From Arenicellales bacterium (GTDB lineage: Bacteria; Pseudomonadota; Gammaproteobacteria; Arenicellales; JAJDZL01), in assembly GCA_965206345.1 (NCBI GenBank), contig OZ242211.1, forward strand, positions 1,338,758 through 1,402,757: a DNA stretch of 64,000 nt. The letters run 5' to 3'. Of this stretch, positions 17,493-63,228 are shown in pieces. Under the pieces are notes generated by a model. It saw only the letters and a list, made by a program, of their open reading frames with translations, was not told where the DNA came from and did no database searches. A program made the translations under genes and the position numbers. Within the stretch, counting starts at the first letter, position 1. Each line of letters opens with the position of its first letter.

Positions 17493-18689
17493 ATGCAATT
17501 CCTGATTGAAAAAGATGCGATTATCGATCCTTTGACCCGAGTTTCGTCCGTCATTGATTCCGGTCCAACAATTCCAATCCTGTCGCAGGTTTTGATTGAA
17601 ACAAATAGTGATGGTATTCGCCTGTGGGGTTCCAACATTGATATGGAAGCCAGCGAGCGAATTGTCGATGTCGATGTCGCTGCTGAAGGCAGGTTTGTCT
17701 GCTCTGCACAGTTGTTGCTGGAGTATTGTCGCCGTCAGCGAAATGGCAGTCGTCTGAGCTTTTTTCGTAGCAACAGAGATTTGGTGGTTGAGAATATTGA
17801 TACGACTGCAATGGGCACTCCGCCCGAAGCCAATGGGGATGCATCGGAGGATTTTAAGAATGCATTTACCGAAACATTGCTGGATCCGGACGATTTTCCA
17901 TACCTTAGTGTTGGTGAAGATGAGTGGGCACTACAGTTTGATATTGATCGGTTTGCGTTGCGTAGCATTCTCAAGCGGACGGAGCATGCAATGGGCCAAA
18001 ACGAACCGCGTATGTATTTGAATTCCACTTTATTGGAGGTTTCGAATACCTCAGTACGCGCAGTCACCACTGACAGCCATCGCTTGGCAATCAGTGAAAC
18101 GAACCTGGATACAGAAATTGGCGATGCATTTTTTCGACATCGTGCCGTGCTACCGCGGAAAACTGCGCTTGAACTCAGCAAGGTTCTGGGAACCTTGACT
18201 TCAAGAGTTACGGTAAAGATCAAGAACACACACATTCAGGTATCGACACCTTACTACTCTTTTACTTCAAAACTGCTGGAAGGTGCATTTCCAGATTGGC
18301 GTGCGGCTGTACCCGGGGATCTGGACCTGGCGTTTCGTGCAAACCGAGAGGAACTTGCCAATGGCTTGAGGACGGTCGGTATTCTCGGTATGTCGCAGCG
18401 GGATGCAAACAAATCGCGAATTGCGGCCAAAGTAGAAGTGAGCGGCGGTAGACTGGATATTCGAGCCGACGTTGTTCAGAAGAAAGTTGAACACACAATG
18501 AATGTGGAAGAGAATGTGGAAAAACACGTGTTCCAGATCAATTACCGATACCTGTTAGACGCGCTCGACGCAATGCCTGATTGCGAGAACGCCGATGTGT
18601 ATTTGCGGGATACCCAATCCGCCTGCCATGTAAAGTTTCCTGAAGATGAATCAACCAGTTTTCTGGTTATGCTGCTGAAAGACAGTTAG
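17493..18689 (+). CDS. dnaN: DNA polymerase III beta sliding clamp (divergent)
   Basis: Conserved position. Recognisable blocks are PTIPILSQVLIE, MYLNSTLLE, TTDSHRLA, SKLLEGAFPDW and FLVMLL at the C-terminus. About 30 aa longer than E. coli DnaN, with an acidic insert (ENIDTTAMGTPPEANGDASEDF...). The ORF track starts at TTG 17484. I prefer ATG 17493. Confidence 0.85.
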   Translation: MQFLIEKDAIIDPLTRVSSVIDSGPTIPILSQVLIETNSDGIRLWGSNIDMEASERIVDVDVAAEGRFVCSAQLLLEYCRRQRNGSRLSFFRSNRDLVVENIDTTAMGTPPEANGDASEDFKNAFTETLLDPDDFPYLSVGEDEWALQFDIDRFALRSILKRTEHAMGQNEPRMYLNSTLLEVSNTSVRAVTTDSHRLAISETNLDTEIGDAFFRHRAVLPRKTALELSKVLGTLTSRVTVKIKNTHIQVSTPYYSFTSKLLEGAFPDWRAAVPGDLDLAFRANREELANGLRTVGILGMSQRDANKSRIAAKVEVSGGRLDIRADVVQKKVEHTMNVEENVEKHVFQINYRYLLDALDAMPDCENADVYLRDTQSACHVKFPEDESTSFLVMLLKDS

Positions 18690-18787
18690 TGCTCGCAACA
18701 GCAGCAAAATAATTCAGTAACTTTCGTTTGTGCTAGATGCGTTCGCCAGCCAATCCAACGCATTCAACACAGCATTCATTGGATAAG

Positions 18788-21238: not shown

Positions 21239-21261
21239 ATTCGATACTCGGATTCCCGCTC

Positions 21262-21639
21262 CTAGTGTAGCGTTTGCTTCGCAGACAGTACAAAAAGTGG
21301 AATTGTGGCATCAAACTGTGCGCCGTCATCGGCAATCATCTGGTAGCTTCCTTCCATCGTACCGACCGGTGTCTCAAGTACGGTTCCGCTGGTGTACTGG
21401 TAAGACTCTCCAGGCATGAGGTGCGGCTGTTCACCAACGACGCCATCGCCGCGTACCTCCTGTACCCGTTCATCACTGTCCTTAACGATCCAGTGACGTC
21501 GAAGGAGTTGCGCGCCAACCCTACCATAGTTGGTAATGGTGATGGTATAGGCAAATACAAAGCGATCTTCGTTTGGACTGGAACGGTGATCAAGATAGTG
21601 CGTTTCAACGCTCACATGAATGTCGTAGTCATCGGCCAT
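21262..21639 (-). CDS. apaG: ApaG (DUF525) protein
   Basis: 125 aa. FVFAYTITITNYG...LLRRHWIVKD...GEQPHLMPGESYQYTSG is typical of ApaG. Confidence 0.85.
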   Translation of the reverse strand: MADDYDIHVSVETHYLDHRSSPNEDRFVFAYTITITNYGRVGAQLLRRHWIVKDSDERVQEVRGDGVVGEQPHLMPGESYQYTSGTVLETPVGTMEGSYQMIADDGAQFDATIPLFVLSAKQTLH

Positions 21640-42411: not shown

Positions 42412-45400
42412 ATGAATAACAACTACGACAGCAAGGAGAACTATGCAGGTCGCCATTCAACGAGCTCACCTGCTAGTGATTGGCAGCGTGCAGTTCCATT
42501 CGACGTTCAAAATGACACGCCGCTCAAAGGATTAATTTATTTCACAGTCTTTACAGCGCTCTCGTTATCAATTCTGGCTTTTGCGCTGGTCCCTCAACTG
42601 AGGGTCGACGATAAAAACTTCAATTCTATAACTGGAATTGCCCCGCCAGTTTCACAGGCTATCACCAAAGAAGCGACACCTGCATCTGAAGCGGCGCAAA
42701 ATATCGAGTTAGAGACTGACGCACAGGATGGTGGCAACCCAGTTAATATTTTGGAGCAGACGGTCCAAACTGATAGTGAGCTAGACCAGCCATTGGGACT
42801 CACCTCTTCAGCGATGGAACTGACTACAGCTGAAACTAGCGGATCAGCGAAAGAGACAGAAAGTACCGGCGAACAAGTCAGTGTTCAGGAGCCAGTAGAT
42901 GTGTCTGCTACCGGACCCGCACAACTTCCAGAACCACCTGACCCCGCGTTGGAGTTGGCAACGACCGAATCAAGTGAAGAACTTGCACCAGAGACAGACC
43001 CTCAACTCTCTTTTGAATTGAGAAATCATACCGAAGAGGTGATCGAAGTCACTGAAACGCCTGTTCAACCATCCGAGCCGATGACTCTGCTTACAACTGA
43101 ACTGGCTGCACTTACAGATTTTGATGCAGAACATCAGAATCTTCCCGAGTCAATCAGTGATTTCGAATCGACAGCCTCTGTTGGACAAGCGCCGGTTCAA
43201 CAAGCCGAATTGACCGTAGTAGAGCCGCGGTCACTTGAGACGGAGTTAGCCCAGGTTGACGAATCGGAAACGGATCGTCAAAGTCTTGAAGAGCTGGTCG
43301 TGCCTGTCGAGTCGGTGTTACAGGTTGAAACAGAGCACGGACAACAGGTTGAACAGATGCAGCCCGAGTTGGCCGTTGTTATCGATTCTGAAATTGATGC
43401 TCAACAATCCGGTGGACCAGCAAGTAACCAAAAGTCGCCGGAATTCACTGTAACAGATTCGGACCAAGGTTCCAGGCCGCTGCAATCAGCCACAACTGAA
43501 ATAGCTCAGATTGCTGCAATGAGGGATATCCAGCAAAGCCATGTTGAACCGGTCAACGACACTGAATCTAGTGCTCGCATCGATGAAGAGTCAGTCGAAC
43601 AGCCCAAGCTAGCTGTTCCGGTACTGGAACAGCTTGCAACTGAACTGGTTGCTATTACAGACTTTGATGCAGAAAACCGGAATCTTCCCGAGCCAATCAG
43701 TGATATCGAATCGGCAGCATATGTTGAAGAAGCACCGGTCCAACAATTCGAATTGGCTATGCTTGAACCGGAGTCACTTGAGACGGAGCTGGCGCAAGTT
43801 GCTGAATCAGTCACAGATGGCCAAACTTTTGACGAACTGGCCGTGTCCGCCGAGTCGGAGGTGCAGTTTGTAGCAGAGCACGAGCAGCAGGTCGAACAGA
43901 TTCAGGCCGAAATAGCCGTTGTTTCAGGTGCTGGTAAGGATGCTCAAAATTCCAGTGAACCGGTAAACGAGCGCGAGGAACCGGAATCCATAGAAATGGA
44001 GCAGGACCAAGGTTTCAGTGAACTGCAGCCAGATACGACTCAATTGGCTCGGACTGCTGAAGTTGATGTTGCCCAGCAAAGTCACATTGAGCCGATCAGC
44101 AACACCGAATCCGTTGCCCGCATCGGTGAAGAGTTAGTTGACCAATCACAGCCAGCTGTACCGGTACTGGAACCGCTTACAACTGAACTGGCTGCACTTA
44201 CAGATTTTGATGCAGAAATCCAGAACTTTCCCGAGTCAGTCCGCGATATCGAATTTGCGGATTATGTTGGAGAATGGTTTGTATCAGGACCGGCGCTGCT
44301 TGAGACGGAGCTGGCAAAAGCTGCTGAATCAGTGGCCGATGATCAAAGGCTTGTCGAACCGGTTCTGCCCGCTGAGTTGGTGGTACAGGTTGAAGTAGAG
44401 CACGAACAACAGGCTGAACAGATTCAGCCCGAATTGAACATCGTTTCAGTTCTGGCCAAAGAGGCACAAGATCCTGGTGAATTGGCAAGCAGTCGCGAGG
44501 CACCGGAATTCATTGAAGCAGAATTGGACCAAAGTCTCGGTGAACTGCAGCCAGCCACGACTCAATTGGCTCGGGCCACTGAAGTAGATGTTGCCCAGCA
44601 AAGTCACATTGAGCCGATCAGCAACACTGAACCTTTCGCCCGTATCGGAGAAGGATCAGCTGGCCAGTCCCAACCTGTCGAACCAACGGTGGAACCGGTT
44701 GAGACTGATTTGGCTGAAACTACTGAGTCGGAGACGGGCGACGAGGGCGTTGGTGGACCGATTAGCGATTACGAACAGGCGCTTCAGCTTGATCAACAGC
44801 CTAATCAACAGACACAGCCAGACGTTACCGTGCTCGAACCCGTATCGGGTGAAGAAAAGTTGGTACCAACCGGAGTAGCCGAGCCAGTCATTCTGCTGTC
44901 CACCGACCTTGAGTCTCTAGCGAACGCACCTGTGGTTTTAACTGAGTCGATTGTTCGTCCTGGTGATTCACTGTCGTCCATATTCAATCGTAATAACCTG
45001 TCCTACAAAATTGCCCAAAGGCTGATTAGTGCACCGGGCAGCAAACCAATCTCTGTGCTGTATCCACGCGACCATTTTAAGTTCGTCTGGAGTAACAACA
45101 AACTGCTTGGCATTGAACTTCGTCGTAAAAATAAACTTTCGCTAATGGCAACTTACGATGGAAGACAGTTTTCCGTTATCAATATCAGAGAGGCCCGACG
45201 CGCTGGTACGATTGTGAAGTTGTTGAAGCAGGAAATTGATTCCGTAGAACGTGAAGATCTGATTGACTATGAGACTCAATACGCAAAACTAAAGAGTACA
45301 AATTTGAAGTGGAGCACCATCACTGTAAAAAAAGGTGATGCATTGAGCAAAATTTTCAGACGTACTGGCCTTTCTGCAGTTGAAGCTATTGCTGTTGCAG

Positions 45401-46434
45401 GCTACCCCGGTAATGAGTGGTTGGCCACCGGTTTGAAACCAGGACAGGAGATGAATATTGCAAAGTCTGAGGAGGGGAAATTTGCAATCCTAGAGGTTCC
45501 TGAGAAGGGAACAGCAAAAGTTCGGCTTGTTTTTCCAGTGGAAGACGGATTCTTCGCAGGTTTTAAAATGATCAAGGCTGAAGTTCAGGAACACTATGCC
45601 TGTGCAGAAGTTGAGAGCAGTCTTTATACTGCAGGATATGCGATCAATATTCCTAGAGAAGTAATGGACGAATTTGTATCGTTGTTTGAATCGCGTTTTG
45701 ACTTCAGCCGACAGTTACAACAGGATGATCAATTCTGCGTCATTTATGATCGTGAATACATCAAGGGTAAGCCTTTAAAGGAAATCAAAATTAAAGCGGG
45801 ATCTCTGATTCAGGAAAACGCTGAGTTGCGCGCCTTCCGGCACGTTGATGATGATCACAGGGTTGCCTACTATGACAGCGAGGGTTTGAACATGCAGGGA
45901 CACTTCCTGCGGTCACCAATCAAGTCTGCAAGAGTAGTTTCAAATTACAGTAAAAGACGCTACCACCCGGTGCTGAAAACCAATCGGCCCCATCTTGGTG
46001 TTGACTATGGCGCCAGAACTGGAACTCCAATTCGGTCGACTGCAACCGGACAGGTCATTAAACGTGGATGGTCCGGCGGTTATGGCAAAATGATCGTTGT
46101 TCAACACGGCAGCAAATATCGTACGCTTTATGCCCACATGTCACGCTATGCTGACGGCACCTCGGTTGGTAGCTACGTCAAGCAAGGGCAGGTGATTGGT
46201 TACGTCGGTTCAACCGGCCTGTCTACGGGTCCGCATTTACACTATGAATTTCATGTAAATGGTAGACATCGCGATCCGTTGCAATATGACATGCCAAAAG
46301 GCCAGCCCATTCCAGAACAATACAAAGTCACCTTTCAATCAGTAGTCGACGAATTCAGCAAACGTCTGGTAAGTATTGATTCACCACAGGTTGAGTACCG
46401 TCCCTCAACTGTCCAAACTGCGAGCAGCCAGTAA
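42412..46434 (+). CDS. MepM/YebA-like murein endopeptidase (OapA/LysM-like + M23) with an ~800-aa acidic repeat insertion
   Basis: N-terminal TM (LIYFTVFTALSLSILAFALVP). A highly acidic (E/D/Q-rich) repeat region follows, then VRPGDSLSSIF and ITVKKGDALSKIF LysM/OapA-like segments. The C-terminal M23 core is HLGVDYGARTGTPI...GSTGLSTGPHLHYEF. The tyrS / M23 peptidase / anmK synteny matches Pseudomonas. Confidence 0.85.
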   Translation: MNNNYDSKENYAGRHSTSSPASDWQRAVPFDVQNDTPLKGLIYFTVFTALSLSILAFALVPQLRVDDKNFNSITGIAPPVSQAITKEATPASEAAQNIELETDAQDGGNPVNILEQTVQTDSELDQPLGLTSSAMELTTAETSGSAKETESTGEQVSVQEPVDVSATGPAQLPEPPDPALELATTESSEELAPETDPQLSFELRNHTEEVIEVTETPVQPSEPMTLLTTELAALTDFDAEHQNLPESISDFESTASVGQAPVQQAELTVVEPRSLETELAQVDESETDRQSLEELVVPVESVLQVETEHGQQVEQMQPELAVVIDSEIDAQQSGGPASNQKSPEFTVTDSDQGSRPLQSATTEIAQIAAMRDIQQSHVEPVNDTESSARIDEESVEQPKLAVPVLEQLATELVAITDFDAENRNLPEPISDIESAAYVEEAPVQQFELAMLEPESLETELAQVAESVTDGQTFDELAVSAESEVQFVAEHEQQVEQIQAEIAVVSGAGKDAQNSSEPVNEREEPESIEMEQDQGFSELQPDTTQLARTAEVDVAQQSHIEPISNTESVARIGEELVDQSQPAVPVLEPLTTELAALTDFDAEIQNFPESVRDIEFADYVGEWFVSGPALLETELAKAAESVADDQRLVEPVLPAELVVQVEVEHEQQAEQIQPELNIVSVLAKEAQDPGELASSREAPEFIEAELDQSLGELQPATTQLARATEVDVAQQSHIEPISNTEPFARIGEGSAGQSQPVEPTVEPVETDLAETTESETGDEGVGGPISDYEQALQLDQQPNQQTQPDVTVLEPVSGEEKLVPTGVAEPVILLSTDLESLANAPVVLTESIVRPGDSLSSIFNRNNLSYKIAQRLISAPGSKPISVLYPRDHFKFVWSNNKLLGIELRRKNKLSLMATYDGRQFSVINIREARRAGTIVKLLKQEIDSVEREDLIDYETQYAKLKSTNLKWSTITVKKGDALSKIFRRTGLSAVEAIAVAGYPGNEWLATGLKPGQEMNIAKSEEGKFAILEVPEKGTAKVRLVFPVEDGFFAGFKMIKAEVQEHYACAEVESSLYTAGYAINIPREVMDEFVSLFESRFDFSRQLQQDDQFCVIYDREYIKGKPLKEIKIKAGSLIQENAELRAFRHVDDDHRVAYYDSEGLNMQGHFLRSPIKSARVVSNYSKRRYHPVLKTNRPHLGVDYGARTGTPIRSTATGQVIKRGWSGGYGKMIVVQHGSKYRTLYAHMSRYADGTSVGSYVKQGQVIGYVGSTGLSTGPHLHYEFHVNGRHRDPLQYDMPKGQPIPEQYKVTFQSVVDEFSKRLVSIDSPQVEYRPSTVQTASSQ
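43060..44700. repeat. three tandem ~522-543-bp (174-181 aa) coding repeats in the mepM-like gene
   Basis: ttacaga(t/c)tttgatgcagaa recurs at 43112, 43655 and 44198, a 543-nt spacing. gcccagcaaagtcacattgagccgatcagcaacac recurs at 44071 and 44593, a 522-nt spacing, because the third unit has a 21-nt deletion. Confidence 0.9.
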
Positions 46435-55382: not shown

Positions 55383-55579
55383 AGAGAGTTACAAAAAAAT
55401 TATTCAGGTCCGAGAAAAGTAAACATTCTGATGTGTTTTACGATTATTTTACAGCCGTCATCCCAAGTTTATAATTCCCAAAACCAAGGACTCTTTTGTT
55501 GTAGCGGAAAATTGTAATATTGGATGATTCTCTGTATAAGATACTGTTCAAACCGAATATCAATTGAGGCTTGGAAATA

Positions 55580-56308
55580 ATGCCAAGGAAGGGTTTCTCG
55601 TTGTACGCTCCGTTTGCAGCAGTGGGCTGTTGCCTTTTTCTTTTTTCCTCTTCCGCTAGTACCAAAGATCTAATGGAGTGTGTTCAATCAGTTGACCATA
55701 GCTTTGAAGGACAGCTACTTACTGAAGAAGAAAAGTATCAAATTCTGCTGCAGCGATTGGCAGATGACCAGATTCGCTTTGAAGAATGCCTCCAAATCAA
55801 CATCAGTGCCGCCAGGGACGGCGGTGGTGCGTCAGGAGGTGGAAGCGGCGGTACAAATTCAAGTGCAACAGCTGGTGGAGGTCAACTCAAAGGACAGAGT
55901 ACAGATGGCAGTCAGACCTTTGCTACTGCGTTGGAATCAATTTCTGCATCGGGAGTTCAGGGTACGGAATTGCCGGAGCCTGAAAATCAGATTACGGGAT
56001 TGGGCGAACCCGAAAATGAACCTGCCGAATTGTCTGATTTCGAAAATCAGGACGGACTTTCTCCGGCAATATTGAATGAAATTACACCAGGTGGTGTAGC
56101 AAGCGGTGGAAATAGAGTGCTTTCAAACGGCATGCAACCAGAGGAGCTGGAAGTTTCAGACAACGATGCAATTTTACTGAGCCAAATACTGGCGGCCGCT
56201 AACGCTGAACAGGACCCTGACAAGAAAAAGAAACTGATGGAAGAGTACCGTAGAATGAGATCAGGCAATAGCGGTGAAACCGCCGTAGCTGCAGGAGGGC
56301 AGCAATGA
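55580..56308 (+). CDS. secreted Gly/Ser-rich acidic protein, unknown function (first gene of the candidate operon)
   Basis: ATG 55580 gives MPRKGFSLYAPFAAVGCCLFLFSSSAS, a signal peptide. There is a low-complexity GGGASGGGSGG tract. The stop overlaps the next start (ATGA at 56305-56308). Confidence 0.5.
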   Translation: MPRKGFSLYAPFAAVGCCLFLFSSSASTKDLMECVQSVDHSFEGQLLTEEEKYQILLQRLADDQIRFEECLQINISAARDGGGASGGGSGGTNSSATAGGGQLKGQSTDGSQTFATALESISASGVQGTELPEPENQITGLGEPENEPAELSDFENQDGLSPAILNEITPGGVASGGNRVLSNGMQPEELEVSDNDAILLSQILAAANAEQDPDKKKKLMEEYRRMRSGNSGETAVAAGGQQ

Positions 56309-57540
56309 TGCTAACGAGAATTACTTCAATCGCACTACTGACAATTTTTTCGCTGTACCTTGCCGCTTGTGGCGGAACATCCGCGGTAGTTAGCTCCTCG
56401 ACCGCGCCAAAAACACCGTTTGGGATCAGCTTGGAACATTCACCCAATAATCAAGGTTGGAGCGAACAATATACAGGTGTGCGCCTTGATGTCATTGTGC
56501 CGTTGTTTGACCCCAACATACCCTCTGATCCTGACGACTATGAAAAGGAAGGCATTTGGCCGGAATTGCGTCGCACCGAAGCCATTCGCTTCTCCGTGAG
56601 CCTGTCGGATGAAATTAAAGCAACTGGTGCATTTAACGGCGTGCGCGTAACGCCGGACGTTGCGGTTAGCGGCGATCTTTTTGTTTCGGGCAAAATCCTC
56701 GAATCAAATGGCGAAGATATCAAGATCGAAGTGCAAGTGCATGACATCAGCGGCAAAAGATGGATGAAGCGGACTTATAAACATCGCGTGAAGGAGTATC
56801 ACTGGCAAAGTAGTCGCACCAGTGCTACGGATCCGTACAATCCAGTGTTCAAAAAGGCTGCCACCGACATTGTGAAACTTCTGAAGAAAAAATCTTCTGA
56901 AGAACTTGCTGATATCCGAGCGACTTCTCAGCTTCAGTTTGCTGCCACTCTTTCACCCGACGCATTTGCACAACATCTCGAAGTCAAAAACAATCGAGTA
57001 AAACTCGTTTCATTACCAGCAGTGAATGATCCATTACTGGTTCGAGCCAATGGAATGCGAGTGCAGGATGCGCTTTTCATGGATGATATGCAAAAACACT
57101 ACACAGGGTTTGTCCGTACAACCAATGCCAGTTACATTAACTGGCAGCAGCATAGTATGGAAGCTGCAAAGGCCCAGCGTGAAGCGGAAGGAAGGGCCAA
57201 TGCCCAGGCTATTGGTGGATTTTTGCTGCTTCTTGGTGCTGCGGCAATTGCTGACGACAGTAGCGGCGACACCGGCGCCGCTCTGGCAGCAACCGCCGTG
57301 GCAGTTGGTGGCATTTCAATGCTGCAAAACAGCTTTGCCGCAAATAGTGAGAGTAAATACCATCACGATATTCTGGTAGAGCATGGCGAATCGTTTAATC
57401 GCGAGGTTGAACCCAAAGTGATCCTGGTCGAAGGACATAAACTTGAAATTCGAGGCAGTGTTGTCACCCAATATCAAAAGTGGCGGGAAACTCTAAAACT
57501 GCTCCACGAACATGAATCTCCACCGCCGGTGCAACTCTAA
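56305..57540 (+). CDS. lipoprotein with a C-terminal hydrophobic Gly/Ala-rich segment, unknown function
   Basis: Lipobox LYLAACGG. A beta-rich middle part (DLFVSGKILESNGEDIKIEVQVHDISGKRW). A hydrophobic stretch, AIGGFLLLLGAAAIA...ALAATAVAVGGISML. Confidence 0.6.
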   Translation: MMLTRITSIALLTIFSLYLAACGGTSAVVSSSTAPKTPFGISLEHSPNNQGWSEQYTGVRLDVIVPLFDPNIPSDPDDYEKEGIWPELRRTEAIRFSVSLSDEIKATGAFNGVRVTPDVAVSGDLFVSGKILESNGEDIKIEVQVHDISGKRWMKRTYKHRVKEYHWQSSRTSATDPYNPVFKKAATDIVKLLKKKSSEELADIRATSQLQFAATLSPDAFAQHLEVKNNRVKLVSLPAVNDPLLVRANGMRVQDALFMDDMQKHYTGFVRTTNASYINWQQHSMEAAKAQREAEGRANAQAIGGFLLLLGAAAIADDSSGDTGAALAATAVAVGGISMLQNSFAANSESKYHHDILVEHGESFNREVEPKVILVEGHKLEIRGSVVTQYQKWRETLKLLHEHESPPPVQL

Positions 57541-57611: not shown

Positions 57612-59108
57612 ATGCCTGTCATGCACAGCAGCCAATCAGCAGGTGTCAAATTACTGAAACACGTTGTTCCCACCGTATTGAGCTTTTTCCTGTTCTGTGG
57701 TTTAGCAGATTCAGTCAGTTCCGATTTGCAGGTTGTTTCATCAATCACGCAGCCAAACGTTGAAAGCAAAACCAGCGACCAAGTTTTTCGCGACGATAAC
57801 CGCACAGATCACTCGTTAAGTCAGGACGATGCGATAGTCATTGGAGTTATCACGCAAACTTCATCTGACAGTCAACAATCAGAATCTAAACACTACAAAC
57901 AAATGCTTGCCCGCGTGGATGAAGCATTGACAGCGTGGGAAATAAGACGGTCAATTGTTCCAGGTTTTGATCAAAGTCTTGAGTTCATTCTTACCAGTCG
58001 GGGTAAGGCAGAAGCGGCTTTTTTTGACGTCGATTATCCGGAAGCGATTCGTCTCATAGAGCAGGTACTTGCTGAAGTCGAATACATTTTTCAGCTGGAG
58101 GAAGATTTCTATTACATCAATCTGAAAATCGCAATCAGTGCGTTTGAGGCGGAAGATGTCGAAGGCGCACAGGACGCCATCACTTTGGCACTCGCCTTGC
58201 GCCCCAACAACAAAGAGGCAGAATTTTGGCAGCAGCAGATTATTCAGTTGCCGGAATTGATTGCTGCCAGGCAGGTTGCCATTGAAGCACGCAATGAAGG
58301 TCGATTGCAGGATGAAATTGATGCACTTTATCGTGTTCTGAAAATTAAGCCTAACGAAGAAGAGGTGAAGACACGCATTGAAGCAGCAAATCGCGAGTTA
58401 CAGGACCAACGATTCAAACGCGCAATTGACGAAGGGCGTCAAGCACTGTCCAATCAGGATGTGGAAAAGGCGAGAAATGCACTAGCAAACGCTCAACGAT
58501 TTAAACCATCGCATCCGGAAATCTCGCGACTGAAACAAAGTATTGAAGAACTGGTCCGTGATCTTGAAGTGGCAAAACTGATTGAGGCTGCTGCAAATGG
58601 CGCAATTCAGGATGACTGGCTCGCTGTTCAGCAGAGCCTTGAGCTGGCGTTAAAGCTTAACCCGAATCTGAGTGATGCGATCGAGGGCCGAATTCTAGCC
58701 AAGAGCATCATTGACGCACAGTCTAAATTTGATGACTATTTGGCCAGATCACATCGGCTGAGTTCCAAAAATATTGTCGATGCCGTACGTAAGGAACTAG
58801 AGGAAGCCCAAGTGTTGCTGAAATACAGTCCACGCTTGCGAACAGCTGTCAGTGAACTTGAAGTTGAAGTGGTTAAGTGGCAAACAGAAGTGCCTGTGCG
58901 CGTGATCTCTGATGGCAAAACGCACATCATAGTGCGCAGGGTTGGCATTATCGGAGCAGTTCGCGATCGGGAGATTATGCTCAAACCCGGAACCTACCGA
59001 TTTGAGGGAACAAGGAGAGGGTATCGAAACAAGTTGGTGGAGGTAAAAGTTCCACCGTATGCTAATGAAGTTACCGAAGTAACGGTTATCTGCGATGAGC
59101 GGGTTTAA
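57612..59108 (+). CDS. secreted TPR-like/helical-repeat protein with a C-terminal PEGA-like beta domain
   Basis: Signal peptide (VVPTVLSFFLFCGLADS). Helical repeats (AITLALALRPNNKEAEFW..., ALELALKLNPNLSDAIEG). C-terminal VRVISDGKTHIIVRRVG...LKPGTYRFEGTRRGYRNKLVEVKV. 14-nt overlap with the next gene. Confidence 0.65.
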   Translation: MPVMHSSQSAGVKLLKHVVPTVLSFFLFCGLADSVSSDLQVVSSITQPNVESKTSDQVFRDDNRTDHSLSQDDAIVIGVITQTSSDSQQSESKHYKQMLARVDEALTAWEIRRSIVPGFDQSLEFILTSRGKAEAAFFDVDYPEAIRLIEQVLAEVEYIFQLEEDFYYINLKIAISAFEAEDVEGAQDAITLALALRPNNKEAEFWQQQIIQLPELIAARQVAIEARNEGRLQDEIDALYRVLKIKPNEEEVKTRIEAANRELQDQRFKRAIDEGRQALSNQDVEKARNALANAQRFKPSHPEISRLKQSIEELVRDLEVAKLIEAAANGAIQDDWLAVQQSLELALKLNPNLSDAIEGRILAKSIIDAQSKFDDYLARSHRLSSKNIVDAVRKELEEAQVLLKYSPRLRTAVSELEVEVVKWQTEVPVRVISDGKTHIIVRRVGIIGAVRDREIMLKPGTYRFEGTRRGYRNKLVEVKVPPYANEVTEVTVICDERV

Positions 59109-61116
59109 GGACCTTTTAGACAAGGCACAGCGCGCCCGTCGTCGTCGAATGATGCTGGGCATTGGTGGCGTAGTACTGATTCTATTGATTTCGGCGGGCG
59201 TCTATATCGGCACGGCCGTCATTGATCGAGTGTTTGTCGCTGTTGCACCAAATGAAGCGGTCGACATTGCACAATTGGAAATTCTTGATGGTACTGGCTG
59301 GATTTGGAAAGATGAAATTATTGCAGTAAGAGGCCCATTGAAACTACAGGTGTCTGCTGACGGATTCAAACAGGAAGTCTTGACGGTCGGTGATGCGACA
59401 TGGAGACGAGGGCGACTTGATGTGGTGCTAAAGCCACTGCCAGCTACAGTCACAGCAACAACCAAGCCAGAATCGGATGAAGTTCGCTGGTATTTGGATG
59501 GTACGTTGGTATCGGTAGCGGCACAGTTAACTGTCGATGTACCTGCGGGTCAGCACACAATTGAAGCCAGACATCCACATTTTGAACCAACCAGTCAATC
59601 GGTAACTCTTAAGCGCGGCGAGTCGTTTCAGTTGAGTCTTGATCTGAAACCAGTGATGGGTCTAGTTGAGATTACCTCTGCGCCGAGCGGGGCAGAAGTG
59701 TCACTTGATTCTGAAGCGATCGGAAAAGCTCCGCTGCACTTGGAATTGCAAGGCGGTGAGTATGAAATTGCGCTTTCACTCGCTGATCACGATCTGAGAA
59801 AGGATTCGTTTGTCATTTCGTCAAACAATCCTGCTGTGAGCCGGCACTATGAACTGGCAATGAGTAACCGCGAAGTGACATTTATGTTGACGCCGGCTGA
59901 TGGGTCATTGACAGTGGGTGGCAGTTCGGTTGCATCCCGAGAATTCGCAAGAGTTTCGCTACCCGTCAATTCCCGCCAAACCGCCACGTATTCGAAGCCT
60001 GGTTTCAGAACTCAAGAAATAGAATTCGAGGTGAACTCGAACTTTGACAACCAAATCAAAATAGAACTTCAGCCCGTTTACGGAATTGTGGAAGTCAGAT
60101 CAAACCCAACAGCTGATGTCTCTCACAATGGCAAAATCATTGGAAGAACTCCGGTTCTGGTTCGTATGCAGACGCTTCCTCAAACAATTACTGTCAGCCA
60201 GAAAAAATTCTTGCCTGAGACTCGCACGATTACGCCCGTTGAAGGCACAACCCGTGTTTTGGAGGTCAATCTTGTGTCGGAACAAGAACACCGACTAAAA
60301 ACCTCTCCGGATACGTATGTGAACAGCATTGGAATGAAATTCAAACTGTTCAGAGAGGCGGATTACTTCACTATGGGCTCAAAGCCCGGTGAATTAAACA
60401 GCAGACCGAACGAGTTTTATCGTCAGGTCCAGTTGAAAAAACCGTTCTACGCCGGCGTGCACGAAGTAACGATCGAAGCGTTTCAAACATTTATTGGCAG
60501 CAGTTCGACTCCAACCGGCGGTAATCGTCCGATTACTGGAATCAGTTGGAAGGAGGCAGCGCAGTTCAGCAACTGGCTCAGTGAAAAGGAGGGGCTGAGA
60601 ACTGTGTATAGGTTCACGGGTGACGAGTACCTGGGTAGCGATTCGACTGCGGATGGGTACCGGATGTTGACGGAAGCTGAATGGGAGTGGTTGGCCAGAA
60701 AGGCGGGCCGTAATCAGCAAACCATCTTCCCTTGGGGTAACGAGACAATCATTCCTCAAAACTCGGGCAATCTGGCTGATACGACGGCTAAGGGTTCGTT
60801 AGCTGTCTTCATTCCGCAATACGACGACGGCCAGGCAGGCGTGAGTGCGACAGGATTGTTTAAACCTAATCCCGCAGGCATTCATGACTTGACTGGCAAT
60901 GTGAGTGAGTGGACGCATGATGCGTATGACCACACTGTTCCCAGTGGCGATCAGATTGAGCTCGACCCATTCGACACCTCCAATGCCACATATCACACGA
61001 TCAAGGGGTCAAACTGGGCATCGGGTGAAGCAAGTGAACTTCGGGTCGCTTACAGAACGGGCAGTTCAGCAGGCAACGAGAGAACTGGGTTTCGACTTGC
61101 TCGTTATCTGTACTAG
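59095..61116 (+). CDS. single-pass membrane protein with tandem PEGA domains and a C-terminal FGE-sulfatase (SUMF1) domain lacking the catalytic cysteines
   Basis: TM MLGIGGVVLILLISAGVYIGTAV. PEGA units (GLVEITSAPSGAEVSLDSEAIGKAPLHLEL; GIVEVRSNPTADVSHNGKIIGRTPVLVRM). FGE-domain blocks (GMKFKLF..., HEVTIEAFQTF, PITGISWKEAAQFSNWLS, GYRMLTEAEWEWLAR, HDLTGNVSEWTHD, IKGSNWAS...TGFRLARYL). There is no Cys in the region equivalent to the FGE active site. Confidence 0.8.
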   Translation: MSGFKDLLDKAQRARRRRMMLGIGGVVLILLISAGVYIGTAVIDRVFVAVAPNEAVDIAQLEILDGTGWIWKDEIIAVRGPLKLQVSADGFKQEVLTVGDATWRRGRLDVVLKPLPATVTATTKPESDEVRWYLDGTLVSVAAQLTVDVPAGQHTIEARHPHFEPTSQSVTLKRGESFQLSLDLKPVMGLVEITSAPSGAEVSLDSEAIGKAPLHLELQGGEYEIALSLADHDLRKDSFVISSNNPAVSRHYELAMSNREVTFMLTPADGSLTVGGSSVASREFARVSLPVNSRQTATYSKPGFRTQEIEFEVNSNFDNQIKIELQPVYGIVEVRSNPTADVSHNGKIIGRTPVLVRMQTLPQTITVSQKKFLPETRTITPVEGTTRVLEVNLVSEQEHRLKTSPDTYVNSIGMKFKLFREADYFTMGSKPGELNSRPNEFYRQVQLKKPFYAGVHEVTIEAFQTFIGSSSTPTGGNRPITGISWKEAAQFSNWLSEKEGLRTVYRFTGDEYLGSDSTADGYRMLTEAEWEWLARKAGRNQQTIFPWGNETIIPQNSGNLADTTAKGSLAVFIPQYDDGQAGVSATGLFKPNPAGIHDLTGNVSEWTHDAYDHTVPSGDQIELDPFDTSNATYHTIKGSNWASGEASELRVAYRTGSSAGNERTGFRLARYLY

Positions 61117-61220: not shown

Positions 61221-61388
61221 ATGCTAAGACTAATGGTCGGAAATAAGCACTTCAGGGTGGTGCTGGCGGTGGCGCTTGCTGTTGCGTTGATTGTGTTTGC
61301 ATTTGGATATCACAAAGCTGGTACCGCGCAGAACACAGGACCGCAGATCAGTTTGAATACACCAGTCAGTTTCCCCGGGGATATTTAG
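61221..61388 (+). CDS. small single-TM protein (55 aa), not in the ORF track
   Basis: My translation gives MLRLMVGNKHFRVVLAVALAVALIVFAFGYHKAGTAQNTGPQISLNTPVSFPGDI. AGGAG lies 10 nt upstream. Its TAG stop directly abuts the TTG start of the ExbB-like gene. Confidence 0.4.
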   Translation: MLRLMVGNKHFRVVLAVALAVALIVFAFGYHKAGTAQNTGPQISLNTPVSFPGDI

Positions 61389-62144
61389 TTGAGAGAAGCA
61401 CTGCGTGGTCTGATAATTCTGGCTATTGCGGCAGCGTCGGTCCACACGCTTTATGTACAGTTAATTCGCCCCAGAGCGGAAATTCTAATTGAAGCTGGTG
61501 TGGCAGCCGGGCAGTATGCACCGCGAGATTGGGTTGTAATTCTGAAAGACTGGGAGCAGGAGATTTGCCTGATTCTTGCAATCTACTGTATTGTGGAAAT
61601 AATGATCCGTCTCTACAAACTTTCAAAAGAACAGTATCTTTTCGAAGTTGATTTTGTCGGTCAGGTTGAGTCGGGTGAGACCGATCTCAAGAGCACTTTG
61701 GAGGACCTTGAGACTTTGCCTCGCTCTGTGGGAAAATCTCAGTTGGTAGAGACGCTAAAGGCTTCCATTCGGCGGTATCGGATTACGTCTGATGTGCAGA
61801 ATACCTCCGATGCAATTCAAACCAGTGTTGATGCGGTAGCCATGCGACTTGAAGCAGATAACACAATGCTGCGCTACATGATTTGGGCGATTCCATCAAT
61901 TGGATTTATTGGCACAGTCCGTGGTATTGGGCAGGCGCTTTCGCAAGCCGACCAGGCGTTATCTGGAGACATTTCAGAAATGACTGCCAGCCTTGGCATC
62001 GCGTTTAACTCAACATTCGTCGCTCTGGTGATCAGCATTTTCCTGATGCTGCTTCTCCATTCGCTTCAGCGTGCACAGGACCGGCGCCTGGTCGACATAC
62101 AAAGTTATTGCGAAGAATTTCTCCTGAATCGAATCAGTCAGTAA
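61389..62144 (+). CDS. MotA/TolQ/ExbB-family proton-channel-like membrane protein
   Basis: Family motifs WAIPSIGFIGTVRGIGQAL (compare PxLGLLGTVxGm) and LGIAFNSTFVALVISIFLMLL (compare ALxTTxxGLxxAIP). 251 aa. TTG start from the ORF track. Confidence 0.75.
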   Translation: MREALRGLIILAIAAASVHTLYVQLIRPRAEILIEAGVAAGQYAPRDWVVILKDWEQEICLILAIYCIVEIMIRLYKLSKEQYLFEVDFVGQVESGETDLKSTLEDLETLPRSVGKSQLVETLKASIRRYRITSDVQNTSDAIQTSVDAVAMRLEADNTMLRYMIWAIPSIGFIGTVRGIGQALSQADQALSGDISEMTASLGIAFNSTFVALVISIFLMLLLHSLQRAQDRRLVDIQSYCEEFLLNRISQ

Positions 62145-62160: not shown

Positions 62161-63228
62161 ATGAAAAGGAGACGACGCGCTCTCGGCAACAACCTTGCAT
62201 TCCTAGATGTGATGGCATGTGGTTTAGGTGCGGCGGTATTGGTTTTTCTGATTGTCAAGCATCACACAGGTGCTGAGCCGATGATTGAAGAGGCCGTATC
62301 TGACGACGGTCAAATTTTGACCATGCTTCGACAGTCCGAAGCAATGCTGGAAGATCAGGTTGAAGCGACTGCCCGACAAATTGAGAATTTGCAGACTCAA
62401 AACGAAGATCGCGAAAATCAGATCGAAGCTCACAAAGCCAAACAGGCTGAGTTGGAGGATTTGCAATTGCAGATCAAAGAGCTGAAGACGAAAAACTCAG
62501 GACTGAAGAAAGAGGTGGTCCGTATTCGTCCGCAGCAAACTGCAGATGTCATTCAGAACAAACAGACAGGCGAAGAGGACTACCTGATTGGGCTCAAAGT
62601 GGAGGGCCGACGAATTGCCATTGTTTTAGATCACAGCGCATCAATGACTGACGAAAAACTGGTTGACATTGTTACACGTAAACTTGGATCAGATGCTGAT
62701 AAACAAAAAGGACCGAAGTGGAATCGCACAGTTCGGGTGGCGCGCTGGCTGTTGGCTAGACTACCGAAGTCCAGTGAGGTAGCAGTCATCGGGTTCAATG
62801 AGAAGGCTAAGTTACTGAATAAAGGTGCCTGGGCTCACAGCAGCGACGCTACTCAGATCAACGGGCTTTTGGCTGAAATTGTCAGCCTTGTTCCGACTGG
62901 TGGAACCAACCTGGAAGCAGGATTGCGTGAGCTGAGAAATTTGAGACCGCAAGCGACCGATATCTATATTGTCACGGATGGACTACCCACGCGAAGCGTA
63001 TCTTCACCAAACCCGATATCCCGCTGTCGAAAAAATGCGACAAAAGTGAGTGGAAAGTGTCGTGTCGTTTTGTTTAACACAGCCATCAAGCATTCGATAC
63101 CTGCCAGAAGCAAAATTAACGTAATTCTGCTTCCGGTCGAAGGTGATCCTGATGCTGGACCACAATTTTGGGGTTTGACTGCCGCGACTGGTGGTTTGCT
63201 GCTGGTTCCAGCGGTGGGTTGGCCATGA
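62161..63228 (+). CDS. ExbD/TolR-like TM helix + coiled coil + von Willebrand factor A (MIDAS) domain protein
   Basis: N-terminus RRRRALGNNLAFLDVMACGLGAAVLVFLIV (compare TolR IVPLLDVLLVLLLIF, conserved Asp = D16, codon 62206-62208). Coiled coil from ~50-125. vWA motifs: IAIVLDHSASM (DxSxS), TGGTNLEAGL and IYIVTDGLPT. Confidence 0.8.
   Translation: MKRRRRALGNNLAFLDVMACGLGAAVLVFLIVKHHTGAEPMIEEAVSDDGQILTMLRQSEAMLEDQVEATARQIENLQTQNEDRENQIEAHKAKQAELEDLQLQIKELKTKNSGLKKEVVRIRPQQTADVIQNKQTGEEDYLIGLKVEGRRIAIVLDHSASMTDEKLVDIVTRKLGSDADKQKGPKWNRTVRVARWLLARLPKSSEVAVIGFNEKAKLLNKGAWAHSSDATQINGLLAEIVSLVPTGGTNLEAGLRELRNLRPQATDIYIVTDGLPTRSVSSPNPISRCRKNATKVSGKCRVVLFNTAIKHSIPARSKINVILLPVEGDPDAGPQFWGLTAATGGLLLVPAVGWP

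What the first reader, a model, noticed from the sequence alone, without database searches (positions are those of the whole stretch)
59095..61116. PEGA-PEGA-FGE(SUMF1)-domain membrane protein without FGE catalytic cysteines, a GldK/PorK-like scaffold next to a stator
The C-terminal ~270 aa carry the FGE-sulfatase fold blocks. The segment equivalent to the Cys-pair active site (IKGSNWASGEASELRVAYRTGSS) has no cysteine, so formylglycine generation is unlikely. Cys-less FGE-fold proteins are known as structural or binding modules, for example GldK/PorK of the type IX secretion/gliding apparatus, which works with the GldLM/PorLM ion-driven motor. Finding such a protein two genes upstream of an ExbB-like channel is a suggestive architectural parallel, although no gldLMN/porLMN homologues are present.
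Basis: partly seen in the sequence, partly recalled or inferred. Interest (0 to 1): 0.6.

Follow-up and report, generated by a model that had tools for sequence, protein, structure and literature searches.

The report
Cysteine-less FGE-fold subunit of vWA motor
This membrane-anchored protein carries an enzyme-like domain that has lost its catalytic residues, and it always occurs in a widespread, uncharacterised gene cluster encoding a proton-driven envelope motor, so it most likely binds or scaffolds rather than catalyses.

Summary
ORF 59095-61116 encodes a 673-aa protein with an N-terminal membrane anchor, five tandem Ig-like domains (three score as PEGA) and a compact C-terminal FGE fold. 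Both FGE catalytic cysteines are missing. That loss is unremarkable alone, because most bacterial PF03781 homologues sampled also lack them.

The protein is not a GldK/PorK member. It is not a lipoprotein, has no insertion domains and no PorN/L/M partners, and its fold matches minimal FGE folds better than PorK.

The gene is a core part of a conserved cluster:
- a secreted protein
- an orphan lipoprotein
- a TPR protein
- the PEGA-FGE protein
- a small secreted peptide ending in FPxDI
- a TolQ/ExbB-like channel
- two vWA proteins with ExbD-like Asp-bearing helices and intact MIDAS motifs

The order holds in about 60 genomes from at least six phyla. All 38 loci found through the vWA gene that had enough upstream DNA carry the PEGA-FGE gene. 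A 2025 paper predicted the channel plus vWA pair as a new 5:2 motor but did not mention these partners.

My best reading is a non-catalytic periplasmic binding or scaffold subunit of this motor system. Its function is unknown.

The parts
55448..55475 (+). Sigma-70-like promoter candidate upstream of the first gene of the cluster
   Evidence: TTTACA-16-TATAAT, 11 of 12 matches. This is a consensus match only. The total number of such sites in the region is not above shuffles.
55571..56308 (+). g1: secreted low-complexity protein (245 aa from TTG, 242 aa from ATG 55580); overlaps g2 by 4 nt
   Evidence: ORF. No Pfam or NCBIfam hit. Weakly conserved: phmmer hits in 13 of 82 loci, always just upstream of g2. 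An ORF of similar size sits there in L001 and L002.
56305..57540 (+). g2: 411-aa lipoprotein (lipobox LAAC, Gly at +2) of an orphan family
   Evidence: Lipobox Cys22 is invariant in A5. No Pfam, NCBIfam or PDB relatives. There are 880/594/249 representatives at E<=1e-3/1e-10/1e-30 among 1.84 billion proteins. Present upstream of g3-g4 in 63 of 82 loci.
57612..59108 (+). g3: 498-aa N-terminally anchored TPR protein; overlaps g4 by 14 nt
   Evidence: Weak TPR hits here, clearer in homologues (TPR_2 5e-8 in L021). Fused to an N-terminal Ser/Thr kinase in some loci. Conserved in 71 of 82 loci. Its C-terminus could not be shown to be PEGA.
59095..61116 (+). g4 (the finding): membrane-anchored protein with five Ig/PEGA domains and a cysteine-less FGE-fold domain, 673 aa
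59152..59220 (+). g4 transmembrane anchor (residues ~20-42), preceded by RARRRR
   Evidence: Read from the sequence. The model shows helix 5-42. The positive-inside rule gives N-in, C-out; this is an inference.
59221..60270 (+). g4 stalk: five tandem beta-sandwich (Ig-like/PEGA) domains, residues 43-392
   Evidence: AlphaFold model m72c43353b4a8, pLDDT mostly >90 for residues ~110-400. Pfam PEGA 1e-23 plus CarboxypepD_reg. Best Foldseek match of the full model is the B. anthracis TIE protein 6fwv.
60307..61113 (+). g4 head: compact FGE-fold (C-type-lectin-like) domain, residues ~405-673
   Evidence: Pfam PF03781 2.4e-30. Domain model pLDDT 96, pTM 0.93. Foldseek: TvpA 2y3c, PvdO 5hha and FGEs at TM ~0.68-0.70.
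61000..61056 (+). Segment equivalent to the FGE active-site loop (I636-R654, IKGSNWASGEASELRVAYR); no cysteine
   Evidence: First Cys aligns with S643; second Cys falls in a 2-residue deletion after A646. Family-wide absence.
61221..61388 (+). Small ORF (55 aa; AGGAG 10 nt upstream): signal peptide or anchor plus conserved C-terminal tail ...SFPGDI-stop; its stop codon abuts the g5 start
   Evidence: An ORF ending [F/L/Y/I]-P-x-[D/N]-I-stop lies between g4 and g5 in 111 of 119 loci. Only 163 such endings occur among 165,186 stops in all frames of all loci. Last five positions: F 97, P 111, V 74, D 106, I 111 of 111.
61389..62144 (+). g5: TolQ/ExbB/MotA-like channel subunit, 251 aa (TTG start)
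   Evidence: Pfam MotA_ExbB 5.3e-16. The 'GTVxGI' threonine is present in 125 of 125 homologues. Adjacent to g4 in 69 of 82 loci, and present upstream of g6 in 45 of 45 eligible loci found through g6.
62161..63228 (+). g6: ExbD/TolR-like Asp-bearing transmembrane helix (LAFLDVMACG), a coiled coil and a vWA domain with complete MIDAS; 355 aa
   Evidence: Pfam VWA_2 2.2e-8. D16, D157-x-S-x-S161, T249 and D273 are invariant in A4. DxSxS present in 140 of 140 homologues. TM Asp conserved. Matches the 'TPH-vWA' class of PMC12204202.
63225..64000 (+). g7: paralogous second TPH-vWA protein (LAFLDIVTCG...VIDTSGSM), cut off by the window end
   Evidence: Translation. Homologues are 316-334 aa in L001, L002 and L021. 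DxSxS present in 120 of 120. TM Asp conserved.

Best explanation
The 673-aa protein is a non-catalytic periplasmic subunit of a conserved, uncharacterised envelope machine driven by the proton-motive force.

Anatomy. It is anchored in the inner membrane by one N-terminal helix. It extends a stalk of five Ig-like (PEGA-type) domains into the periplasm. At the tip it carries a compact FGE-fold (C-type-lectin-like) head that has lost the copper-binding cysteine pair.

Cluster. Its gene is translationally coupled to an anchored TPR protein upstream. Downstream come a small secreted peptide with an invariant FPxDI C-terminus, a TolQ/ExbB-like channel, and two paralogous proteins. Each paralogue has an ExbD/TolR-like Asp-bearing pore helix joined by a coiled coil to a vWA domain with a MIDAS site.

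Proposed working (inferred). The channel pentamer and the vWA heterodimer form a 5:2 ion-driven motor. The PEGA-FGE protein, with the TPR protein and the lipoprotein, forms the periplasmic or outer-membrane-proximal partner. The vWA heads engage or pull on this partner, or it fixes the machine to the wall or to a ligand. The FGE-fold head acts as a docking or ligand-binding module, as in PorK, rather than as an enzyme.

Shown here: domain anatomy, loss of the catalytic residues, and obligate conserved synteny. Inferred: physical interaction, the ligand and the cellular function.
For: Anatomy and loss of catalysis:
- Pfam FGE-sulfatase 2.4e-30 and PEGA 1e-23.
- The first catalytic Cys is replaced by Ser; the second is deleted.
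- No Cys at that segment among 115 relatives, and none in A3 family rows.
- The stalk of five domains is well modelled, as is the FGE head at pLDDT 96.
- The head matches cysteine-less, non-FGE members of the fold best: TvpA and PvdO.
- No sulfatase signature in the 64-kb window.

Synteny from the g4 side:
- In 82 loci found through g4, g2, g3, g5, g6 and g7 homologues are present in 63, 71, 69, 65 and 65 loci.
- With few exceptions (for example L067 and L074) they keep the same order and strand. Most absences are at contig ends.
- Hosts include Gamma-, Alpha- and Betaproteobacteria, Desulfobacterota, Acidobacteriota, Bacteroidota, Verrucomicrobiota and Cyanobacteria.

Synteny from the motor side:
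- Of loci found through the vWA protein g6, 38 of 38 with at least 5.2 kb upstream carry g4.
- 45 of 45 with at least 2.6 kb upstream carry the channel.

Motor features:
- The TM Asp in g6 and g7 is conserved.
- MIDAS DxSxS is present in 140/140 and 120/120 homologues, and the channel Thr in 125/125.
- The same class was independently predicted to be a 5:2 motor without TolR/ExbD (PMC12204202).

Precedents for the fold as a binding module:
- PorK is an FGE fold without the catalytic cysteines. It serves as a docking hub for a ring driven by the PorLM motor (PMC12421860).
- PEGA+FGE modules also occur as extracytoplasmic parts of Ser/Thr kinases (P0034-P0037).

Gene overlaps suggest co-translation: g3/g4 by 14 nt, g1/g2 and g6/g7 by 4 nt, and the small ORF's stop abuts the g5 start.
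Against: - No interaction was tested.
- No phenotype or expression data exist. PMC12204202 states that no deletion phenotypes are known for the related vWA transducer family it describes.
- Conserved synteny shows a functional link, not a mechanism.
- The fold also houses real enzymes with other chemistries (EgtB, OvsA, PvdO, ToxD, CalU17). An unknown catalytic role, for example on the co-encoded peptide, is therefore not excluded.
- The metagenome test kept only the 80 best relatives of g6. More distant TPH-vWA motors, such as the Idiomarina cluster used in the paper, may lack the PEGA-FGE gene.
Confidence: 0.6

Rival explanations
1. It is the ligand-sensing ectodomain of a transmembrane signalling complex. 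The PEGA-FGE module binds an envelope or external ligand and relays this to the cytoplasm through the partner TPR protein (kinase-fused in some lineages) and FHA proteins. The motor is the regulated output, not a mechanical partner.
For: - PEGA+FGE modules are fused to Ser/Thr kinases in other proteins (P0034-P0037).
- In about 10 loci the upstream TPR protein gains roughly 250-340 N-terminal residues. These are a Pkinase domain in L002 (E = 6.7e-38).
- In L002 the extra gene between the channel and the vWA genes carries an FHA domain.
- In those loci g4 itself gains a cytoplasmic N-terminal extension of about 130 aa.
Against: - The window's version and 11 other short-form loci have no kinase, no FHA domain and almost no cytoplasmic part (about 19 residues), yet keep the whole cluster.
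- The g4 extension matches no Pfam family.
- This reading overlaps with the best explanation, since both make the head a binding module.
Confidence: 0.2
2. It is an enzyme with a chemistry other than formylglycine generation, as the NCBI label 'SUMF1/EgtB/PvdO family nonheme iron enzyme' suggests. For example, it might modify the co-encoded FPxDI peptide or an envelope component.
For: - The fold hosts diverse enzymes: PvdO, EgtB, OvsA, ToxD and CalU17 are among the Foldseek matches.
- NCBI names close homologues this way.
- A conserved small secreted peptide is encoded immediately downstream.
Against: - NCBIfam PvdO scores 41.6 bits against a cutoff of 500.
- From my own knowledge, the iron ligands of EgtB-type enzymes lie in a DinB-like domain. 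No such domain was found here.
- No redox partner or cofactor genes were identified among the cluster products.
- A five-domain stalk and obligate linkage to a motor and vWA heads suit a structural or binding role better.
Confidence: 0.1
3. It is a true GldK/PorK orthologue, part of a T9SS-like or gliding apparatus outside Bacteroidota.
For: - The best PDB sequence hits are PorK chains (E ~2e-11).
- The best NCBIfam hit is GldK.
- A 5:2-type motor is encoded next to it.
Against: - The PorK and GldK matches cover only the generic FGE core (residues 476-614). The GldK score is 70.7 bits against a cutoff of 350.
- No lipobox and no insertion domains. Foldseek TMt to PorK is 0.33.
- No PorN, PorL, PorM or GldJ homologues.
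- A Saprospiraceae (Bacteroidota) MAG carries this cluster as a separate system (L034).
Confidence: 0.03
4. It is an ordinary sulfatase-maturating formylglycine-generating enzyme.
For: The Pfam FGE-sulfatase hit, and JGI auto-annotations of homologues as 'formylglycine-generating enzyme required for sulfatase activity'.
Against: - Both catalytic cysteines are absent in this protein and in the whole family.
- No sulfatase signature in the window.
- The conserved neighbours are motor, vWA, TPR and lipoprotein genes, not sulfatases.
Confidence: 0.02

Closest known systems
PorK/GldK of the type IX secretion system (with the PorLM/GldLM motor)
   Same: Both are FGE folds that lack both catalytic cysteines and are used as non-enzymatic docking modules (PMC12421860). 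Both are encoded with an ion-driven 5:2-type inner-membrane motor. Sequence similarity over the fold core is E ~2e-11.
   Different: - PorK is an outer-membrane lipoprotein with two insertion domains. It forms a ring with PorN.
- This protein is anchored in the inner membrane by a helix, has a five-Ig stalk and a minimal FGE fold (TMt 0.33 to PorK).
- It has no PorN, PorL or PorM partners.
- Its motor is TolQ/ExbB-like with vWA-bearing B subunits.
- It is found mainly in Proteobacteria.
TolQ-like + TPH-vWA pair predicted as a new 5:2 motor (Mol Biol Evol 2025, PMC12204202)
   Same: g5-g6-g7 match the description: a tolQ-like gene with no tolR/exbD, followed by a heterologous pair of vWA proteins. 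Their transmembrane helix carries the conserved Asp.
   Different: The paper's text and the supplements held do not mention the PEGA-FGE protein, the lipoprotein, the upstream TPR protein of this cluster or the FPxDI peptide. Here these are shown to be conserved partners in the relatives sampled.
Cysteine-less minimal FGE-fold proteins: Treponema denticola TvpA (2y3c) and PvdO (5hha)
   Same: They are the best structural matches to the head domain (Foldseek E 6e-16 and 1e-15, TM ~0.68-0.71). They have the same compact fold without the FGE cysteine pair.
   Different: Both are stand-alone proteins without a PEGA stalk or membrane anchor, and they sit in unrelated gene contexts. Sequence identity is only about 23%.
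Formylglycine-generating enzyme (human SUMF1, T. curvata and S. coelicolor FGE)
   Same: Same fold (TM ~0.68-0.70). Core motifs are conserved: GYRLPTEAEWE, GNVxEW and the two arginines after the active-site loop.
   Different: The active-site cysteine pair is missing (Cys272/277 in S. coelicolor FGE, PMC2459300). There is no sulfatase context.
Ton and Tol-Pal systems (ExbBD-TonB, TolQRA-TolB-Pal-CpoB)
   Same: A MotA/ExbB-family channel. The Asp-bearing helix of the B subunit. Co-encoded TPR protein and lipoprotein. A presumed periplasm-spanning force-transducing role.
   Different: - The B subunits carry coiled-coil and vWA heads instead of a peptidoglycan-binding or ExbD fold.
- No TonB/TolA-like protein is present.
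- The partners (PEGA-FGE protein, orphan lipoprotein, FPxDI peptide) have no counterpart in Ton or Tol.

Membership tests
Formylglycine-generating enzyme (catalytic FGE/SUMF1) | FGE fold (PF03781) | tested here: met
   Pfam E = 2.4e-30. Foldseek TM ~0.68-0.70 to human, T. curvata and S. coelicolor FGE.
Formylglycine-generating enzyme (catalytic FGE/SUMF1) | Two active-site cysteines (human C336/C341; S. coelicolor C272/C277) | tested here: not met
   The first aligns with S643; the second falls in a 2-residue deletion. Absent family-wide. Reference residues are from PMC2459300 and from the C336S/C341S entry names 2aft/2afy.
Formylglycine-generating enzyme (catalytic FGE/SUMF1) | Type I sulfatase substrates encoded in the genome or neighbourhood | tested here: not met
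   No PS00523-like or CxPxRxxxxTG motif in any frame of the 64-kb window. Conserved neighbours in other genomes are not sulfatases. The rest of the genome was not available.
GldK/PorK (T9SS ring lipoprotein) | Score above the NCBIfam TIGR03525 equivalog cutoff | tested here: not met
   70.7 bits against a cutoff of 350; matched profile positions 219-343 of 408 only.
GldK/PorK (T9SS ring lipoprotein) | N-terminal lipoprotein signal (outer-membrane acylation) | tested here: not met
   The N-terminus is MSGFKDLLDKAQRARRRRMMLGIGGVVLILLISAGVYIGTAV, with no lipobox cysteine. It is modelled as a long helix. The PorK feature is from PMC12421860.
GldK/PorK (T9SS ring lipoprotein) | FGE-like fold lacking the catalytic cysteines | tested here: met
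   PMC12421860 states the same for PorK.
GldK/PorK (T9SS ring lipoprotein) | Insertion domains in the FGE fold that mediate PorK-PorK and PorK-PorN contacts | tested here: not met
   The head is about 270 aa, the size of the Pfam domain. Foldseek covers only a third of PorK (TMt 0.33, rmsd >14 A).
GldK/PorK (T9SS ring lipoprotein) | Partners PorN/GldN and PorLM/GldLM encoded alongside | tested here: not met
   No such NCBIfam or Pfam hits among the seven cluster proteins.
TolQ-like + TPH-vWA 5:2 motor system (PMC12204202) - for the cluster as a whole | MotA/ExbB/TolQ-family channel gene with no adjacent tolR/exbD/motB gene | tested here: met
   g5 scores MotA_ExbB 5.3e-16. No ExbD or MotB family hit in the cluster.
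TolQ-like + TPH-vWA 5:2 motor system (PMC12204202) - for the cluster as a whole | Heterologous pair of vWA proteins, each with an N-terminal helix carrying the conserved Asp | tested here: met
   g6 has LAFLDVMACG and g7 has LAFLDIVTCG. The Asp is conserved in nearly all homologues. vWA and MIDAS are conserved.
TolQ-like + TPH-vWA 5:2 motor system (PMC12204202) - for the cluster as a whole | 5:2 assembly with the Asp facing the channel's threonine ring | not testable with these tools
   Only monomer prediction was available. The channel Thr ('GTVxGI') is conserved in 125 of 125 homologues, which is consistent but not a test.

The most novel reading that the evidence does not exclude
The cluster encodes a previously unrecognised periplasm-spanning machine, a non-Bacteroidota functional counterpart of PorLM-PorKN. 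A TolQ-like pentamer turns a heterodimeric coiled-coil/vWA 'rotor'. Its MIDAS heads engage a fixed partner built from the PEGA-FGE stalk, the TPR protein and an orphan outer-membrane lipoprotein. The secreted FPxDI peptide acts as the docking ligand or regulator. The machine would power an as yet unknown process at the outer membrane, such as adhesion or motility, export, or envelope maintenance.
Probability: 0.3. Interest if true: 0.85.

Novelty: new variant of a known kind. Interest (0 to 1): 0.62.

Why it matters
Ion-driven 5:2 motors (MotAB, ExbBD, TolQR, PorLM/GldLM, ZorAB) each power a different envelope process. What a motor does is defined by its partners. The TolQ-like + vWA motor was only predicted in 2025 and has no known function or partners.

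This analysis shows that the motor travels with four further conserved components across at least six phyla:
- a PEGA-stalked, cysteine-less FGE-fold protein
- a TPR protein
- an orphan lipoprotein
- a tiny secreted peptide with an invariant FPxDI C-terminus

That gives a defined parts list and testable contacts: MIDAS with an acidic C-terminus, the TPR domain with the peptide, and the FGE groove with the peptide. Several cultured hosts are available, including Microbulbifer, Sneathiella and Spectribacter.

It would also be a second, independent case of the FGE fold being recruited as a docking module next to a 5:2 motor. Finally, it corrects the database labels 'formylglycine-generating enzyme' and 'nonheme iron enzyme' for this family.

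Tried and rejected
- PADLOC defence models: only a weak ZorA-like hit for the channel (E = 2.7e-4) and nothing for g4. A Zorya-like defence system is not supported, and no nuclease or effector genes are present.
- Full-length structure prediction modelled half of the FGE head poorly (pLDDT ~30 for residues 538-603). Its Foldseek results were dominated by multi-Ig proteins. I re-predicted the head alone with a deeper alignment.
- The C-terminus of the TPR protein could not be shown to be PEGA by BLAST against the g4 stalk.
- The ~130-aa cytoplasmic N-terminal extension of g4 in kinase-type loci looked FHA-like by eye. It matches no Pfam family even at E = 10, so I make no claim.
- PDB sequence and profile searches for the lipoprotein, the channel and the vWA protein found nothing useful.
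- Literature searches for the PEGA/FGE/MotA/vWA combination found only the 2025 motor paper and the PorK structure papers.
- One look-up by exact protein sequence (P0017) returned nothing.
- The small ORF and g5 are in the same frame in the window, separated by a single stop codon. I considered read-through. In most loci the two genes are in different frames or overlap, so this is ordinary tight coupling.

Full report
**1. The observation**

ORF 59095-61116 (+) encodes 673 aa. Pfam assigns FGE-sulfatase (PF03781, E = 2.4e-30, residues 425-670) and PEGA (PF08308, E = 1e-23, three stretches). The N-terminus, MSGFKDLLDKAQRARRRRM followed by about 22 hydrophobic residues, reads as an N-in signal anchor. 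There is no lipobox.

An AlphaFold model of the whole protein shows a long N-terminal helix (5-42). It then shows five tandem beta-sandwich domains (43-111, 117-183, 188-253, 258-324, 329-392) with pLDDT mostly above 90. The stalk is therefore longer than the 'PEGA-PEGA' of the finding.

The head was poorly modelled in that run. I re-predicted it alone (residues 400-673) with a 104-sequence alignment, which gave pLDDT 96 and pTM 0.93.

**2. The catalytic site**

HMMER alignments to T. curvata FGE (5nxl/6s07) and human FGE (2aft and others) place the first catalytic cysteine opposite Ser643. The second falls in a two-residue deletion after Ala646, within IKGSNWASGEASELRVAYR (I636-R654). S. coelicolor FGE uses Cys272/Cys277 at this site (PMC2459300).

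No member of the family alignments has a cysteine there. Among 115 homologues recovered from related loci, 100 gave a regex match to the segment and none of those contains a Cys. The C-termini printed for the other 15 show none there either. Most of the 115 have a single Cys in the whole head; 13 of them have none, and the window protein's head also has none.

Formylglycine generation can be set aside. No sulfatase signature occurs in any frame of the window.

One caution applies. Nearly all of the roughly 65 more distant PF03781 homologues in alignment A3 also lack the cysteine pair. 'Cysteine-less FGE domain' is the common state in bacteria, not a distinguishing mark.

**3. Is it GldK/PorK-like?**

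By sequence, PorK chains are nominally the best PDB hits (E ~2e-11). They align only to the generic core, residues 476-614. FGEs align to 517-669 with nearly the same score. NCBIfam GldK scores 70.7 bits against an equivalog cutoff of 350.

By structure, the head matches TvpA (2y3c), PvdO (5hha) and the FGEs at TM ~0.68-0.70. PorK gives TMq 0.51 and TMt 0.33. This is as expected if PorK's two insertion domains (PMC12421860) are missing here.

PorK is an outer-membrane lipoprotein that pairs with PorN. This protein is helix-anchored in the inner membrane, and no PorN, PorL, PorM or GldJ homologue is in the cluster. It is not a member of that family.

**4. The surroundings**

The gene sits in a co-directional, tightly packed cluster.
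- g1, 55571-56308: a secreted, low-complexity protein.
- g2, 56305-57540: a lipoprotein with LAAC, and no known family.
- g3, 57612-59108: an anchored TPR protein that overlaps g4 by 14 nt.
- g4: the finding.
- A 55-aa small ORF, 61221-61388.
- g5, 61389-62144: MotA_ExbB, E = 5.3e-16.
- g6, 62161-63228: a vWA protein.
- g7, 63225 to the window end: a second vWA protein.

A divergent DUF6338 gene bounds the cluster upstream. A good sigma-70-like site lies at 55448-55475.

g6 and g7 begin with LAFLDVMACG and LAFLDIVTCG. From my knowledge of E. coli ExbD and TolR, these resemble the Asp-bearing transmembrane helix of those proteins. A coiled coil of about 90 residues follows, then a vWA domain with a full MIDAS. 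D16, D157xS159xS161, T249 and D273 are invariant in A4.

**5. Conservation**

*From the g4 side.* A scan of one genome per GTDB species with the g4 alignment returned 80 loci. phmmer with the window's seven proteins against all ORFs of these loci, plus L001 and L002, found g2, g3, g5, g6 and g7 in 63, 71, 69, 65 and 65 of 82 loci. With few exceptions (for example L067 and L074) they keep the same order and strand. Most misses are at contig ends or in five distant FGE-only hits.

Hosts include many Gammaproteobacteria: Arenicellales (best at 49% identity), Methylophaga, Microbulbifer, Porticoccus, Halieaceae and SAR92. Beyond these are Alphaproteobacteria (Sneathiella, Rhodospirillaceae), Nitrosomonadaceae, Desulfobacterales, Thermoanaerobaculales, Saprospiraceae, Opitutales and Nostoc.

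*Two forms exist*.
- The short form, as in the window, occurs in 12 loci.
- The long form, in 47 loci, has an extra gene of about 430-460 aa between the channel and g6. That gene carries an FHA domain in L002.
- About ten loci also fuse roughly 250-340 N-terminal residues to the TPR protein, a Ser/Thr kinase domain in L002, and add about 130 cytoplasmic residues to g4.

*From the motor side.* This test is independent of g4. A metagenome scan with a g6 alignment gave 80 loci. All 38 with at least 5.2 kb upstream carry g4, and all 45 with at least 2.6 kb upstream carry the channel.

*Motor residues.* The TM Asp is conserved in essentially all g6 and g7 homologues. DxSxS is present in 140/140 and 120/120 homologues. 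The channel's 'GTVxGI' threonine is present in 125/125.

*The lipoprotein.* The g2 family has no Pfam, NCBIfam or PDB relative. It comprises 594 representatives at E<=1e-10 among 1.84 billion proteins. This gives a rough size for the system's diversity.

**6. A conserved small peptide**

Between g4 and g5 lies an ORF. AGGAG sits 10 nt before its ATG at 61221, and its TAG stop abuts the g5 start. It encodes MLRLMVGNKHFRVVLAVALAVALIVFAFGYHKAGTAQNTGPQISLNTPVSFPGDI.

In 111 of 119 loci with adjacent g4 and g5, an ORF in that gap ends in [F/L/Y/I]-P-x-[D/N]-I-stop. Only 163 such endings occur among 165,186 stops in all frames of all loci.

Short-form peptides have a signal-like N-terminus, often with an AxA site, and a tail of 15-20 residues (...ISLNSPxSFPVDI). 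Long-form peptides have a signal peptide, an acidic linker and ...PSEEISEDxxVxFPVDI.

This is a further core component. It is an obvious candidate ligand for one of the binding modules: the vWA MIDAS, which typically binds an acidic group; the TPR domain, by analogy with EEVD-type C-terminal clamps; or the FGE groove. None of these was testable here.

**7. Literature**

PMC12204202 (Mol Biol Evol 2025) describes exactly the g5-g6-g7 arrangement. TMH-tethered vWA proteins occur in heterologous pairs and co-occur tightly with tolQ-like genes, with no tolR/exbD. They carry a trans-pore helix with the conserved Asp. AlphaFold3 predicts that they sit inside the pentamer. Their function is unknown.

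The paper's text and the supplements held contain no mention of sulfatase, FGE, PEGA or GldK. Further searches found no description of the other partners.

PMC12421860 establishes PorK as a cysteine-less FGE fold repurposed as a docking hub for the ring driven by PorLM.

**8. Mechanism**

Shown here: g4 is an inner-membrane-anchored periplasmic protein with a five-domain stalk and a catalytically dead FGE-fold head. It is an obligate genomic partner of a TolQ-like/vWA-pair motor, a TPR protein, a lipoprotein and the FPxDI peptide.

Inferred:
- The channel and the vWA pair form a 5:2 proton-driven motor.
- From generic domain dimensions, the five-Ig stalk of g4 and the coiled coils of g6 and g7 are each long enough to reach the wall or the outer membrane.
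- The FGE-fold head, which from my knowledge is a C-type-lectin-like fold, acts as a docking or ligand-binding site.
- The head therefore gives the motor's vWA heads something to hold or pull, or it fixes the assembly. This is functionally comparable to PorK with PorLM.

The kinase and FHA additions in some lineages suggest the assembly can be regulated by, or signal through, phosphorylation. A sensor role for the PEGA-FGE module is the main rival, and it overlaps with the best explanation. An unknown enzymatic activity cannot be excluded but has no positive support.

**9. Verdict**

The GldK/PorK family assignment is rejected. The stator connection is confirmed and extended to a defined eight-component system in the window's short form, with one or more extra genes in the long form. 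The motor core of this system was predicted only recently, and I found no description of its partners.

I rate it a new variant of a known kind, a 5:2-motor envelope system. Interest is moderately high because the parts list makes the function experimentally approachable.

Noticed in passing
window 61221-61388 (+): A small ORF (55 aa) lies between the PEGA-FGE gene and the channel gene. It has a signal-like N-terminus and a C-terminus ...SFPGDI. An equivalent ORF ending F-P-x-D-I-stop is present in 111 of 119 related loci. It is a candidate docking peptide of the system.
   Followed up: yes
window 7732-10632 (-) and 10652-11578 (-): A 966-aa protein has a MotB-like N-terminal helix (SIWPSFTDIMMVIVMIF) followed by about 850 aa of coiled coil with internal repeats of ~95 aa. 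Next to it is a 308-aa protein with no Pfam hit. The only NCBIfam hit to its N-terminal, helix-bearing region is weak (PRK09039 'peptidoglycan-binding protein'); its stronger SMC hits lie in the coiled coil. This may be a second unusual stator-like pair, close to gidA/mnmE/yidC/dnaA. The region 8001-10000 shows an AT skew of -0.20.
   Followed up: partly
window ~3000-21300: By the order and N-terminal sequences of the long ORFs, the window appears to contain the chromosomal origin neighbourhood: parB/parA-like, gidA-like, mnmE-like, yidC-like, then dnaA-, dnaN- and gyrB-like genes. Cumulative GC skew turns near 13-15 kb. These assignments are by eye and were not checked with family searches.
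   Followed up: no
window 42412-46434 (+): A very large (1340 aa) protein combines LysM/OapA, Csd3 and Peptidase_M23 domains at its C-terminus. About 840 N-terminal residues are unassigned.
   Followed up: no
L002 7635-10004 and 13572-14966; also L042, L051, L052, L055, L058 and others: In a subset of related clusters the TPR protein carries an N-terminal Ser/Thr kinase. The PEGA-FGE protein gains a cytoplasmic extension of ~130 aa that matches no Pfam family. The extra gene after the channel carries an FHA domain. This suggests phospho-regulation of the machine in those lineages.
   Followed up: partly
L001 1191-6371: In one related metagenomic contig the cluster lies directly downstream of a TonB2-type set: DUF3450, a long MotA_ExbB protein, ExbB, ExbD, TonB_C and TPR. 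This neighbourhood is not seen in the window or in L002, so it may be coincidental.
   Followed up: no
L012 ~8926 (g7 homologue): The translated g7 homologue in this MAG contig runs into a long poly-Ala stretch right after the FLDV helix motif. This is probably an assembly or masking artefact.
   Followed up: no
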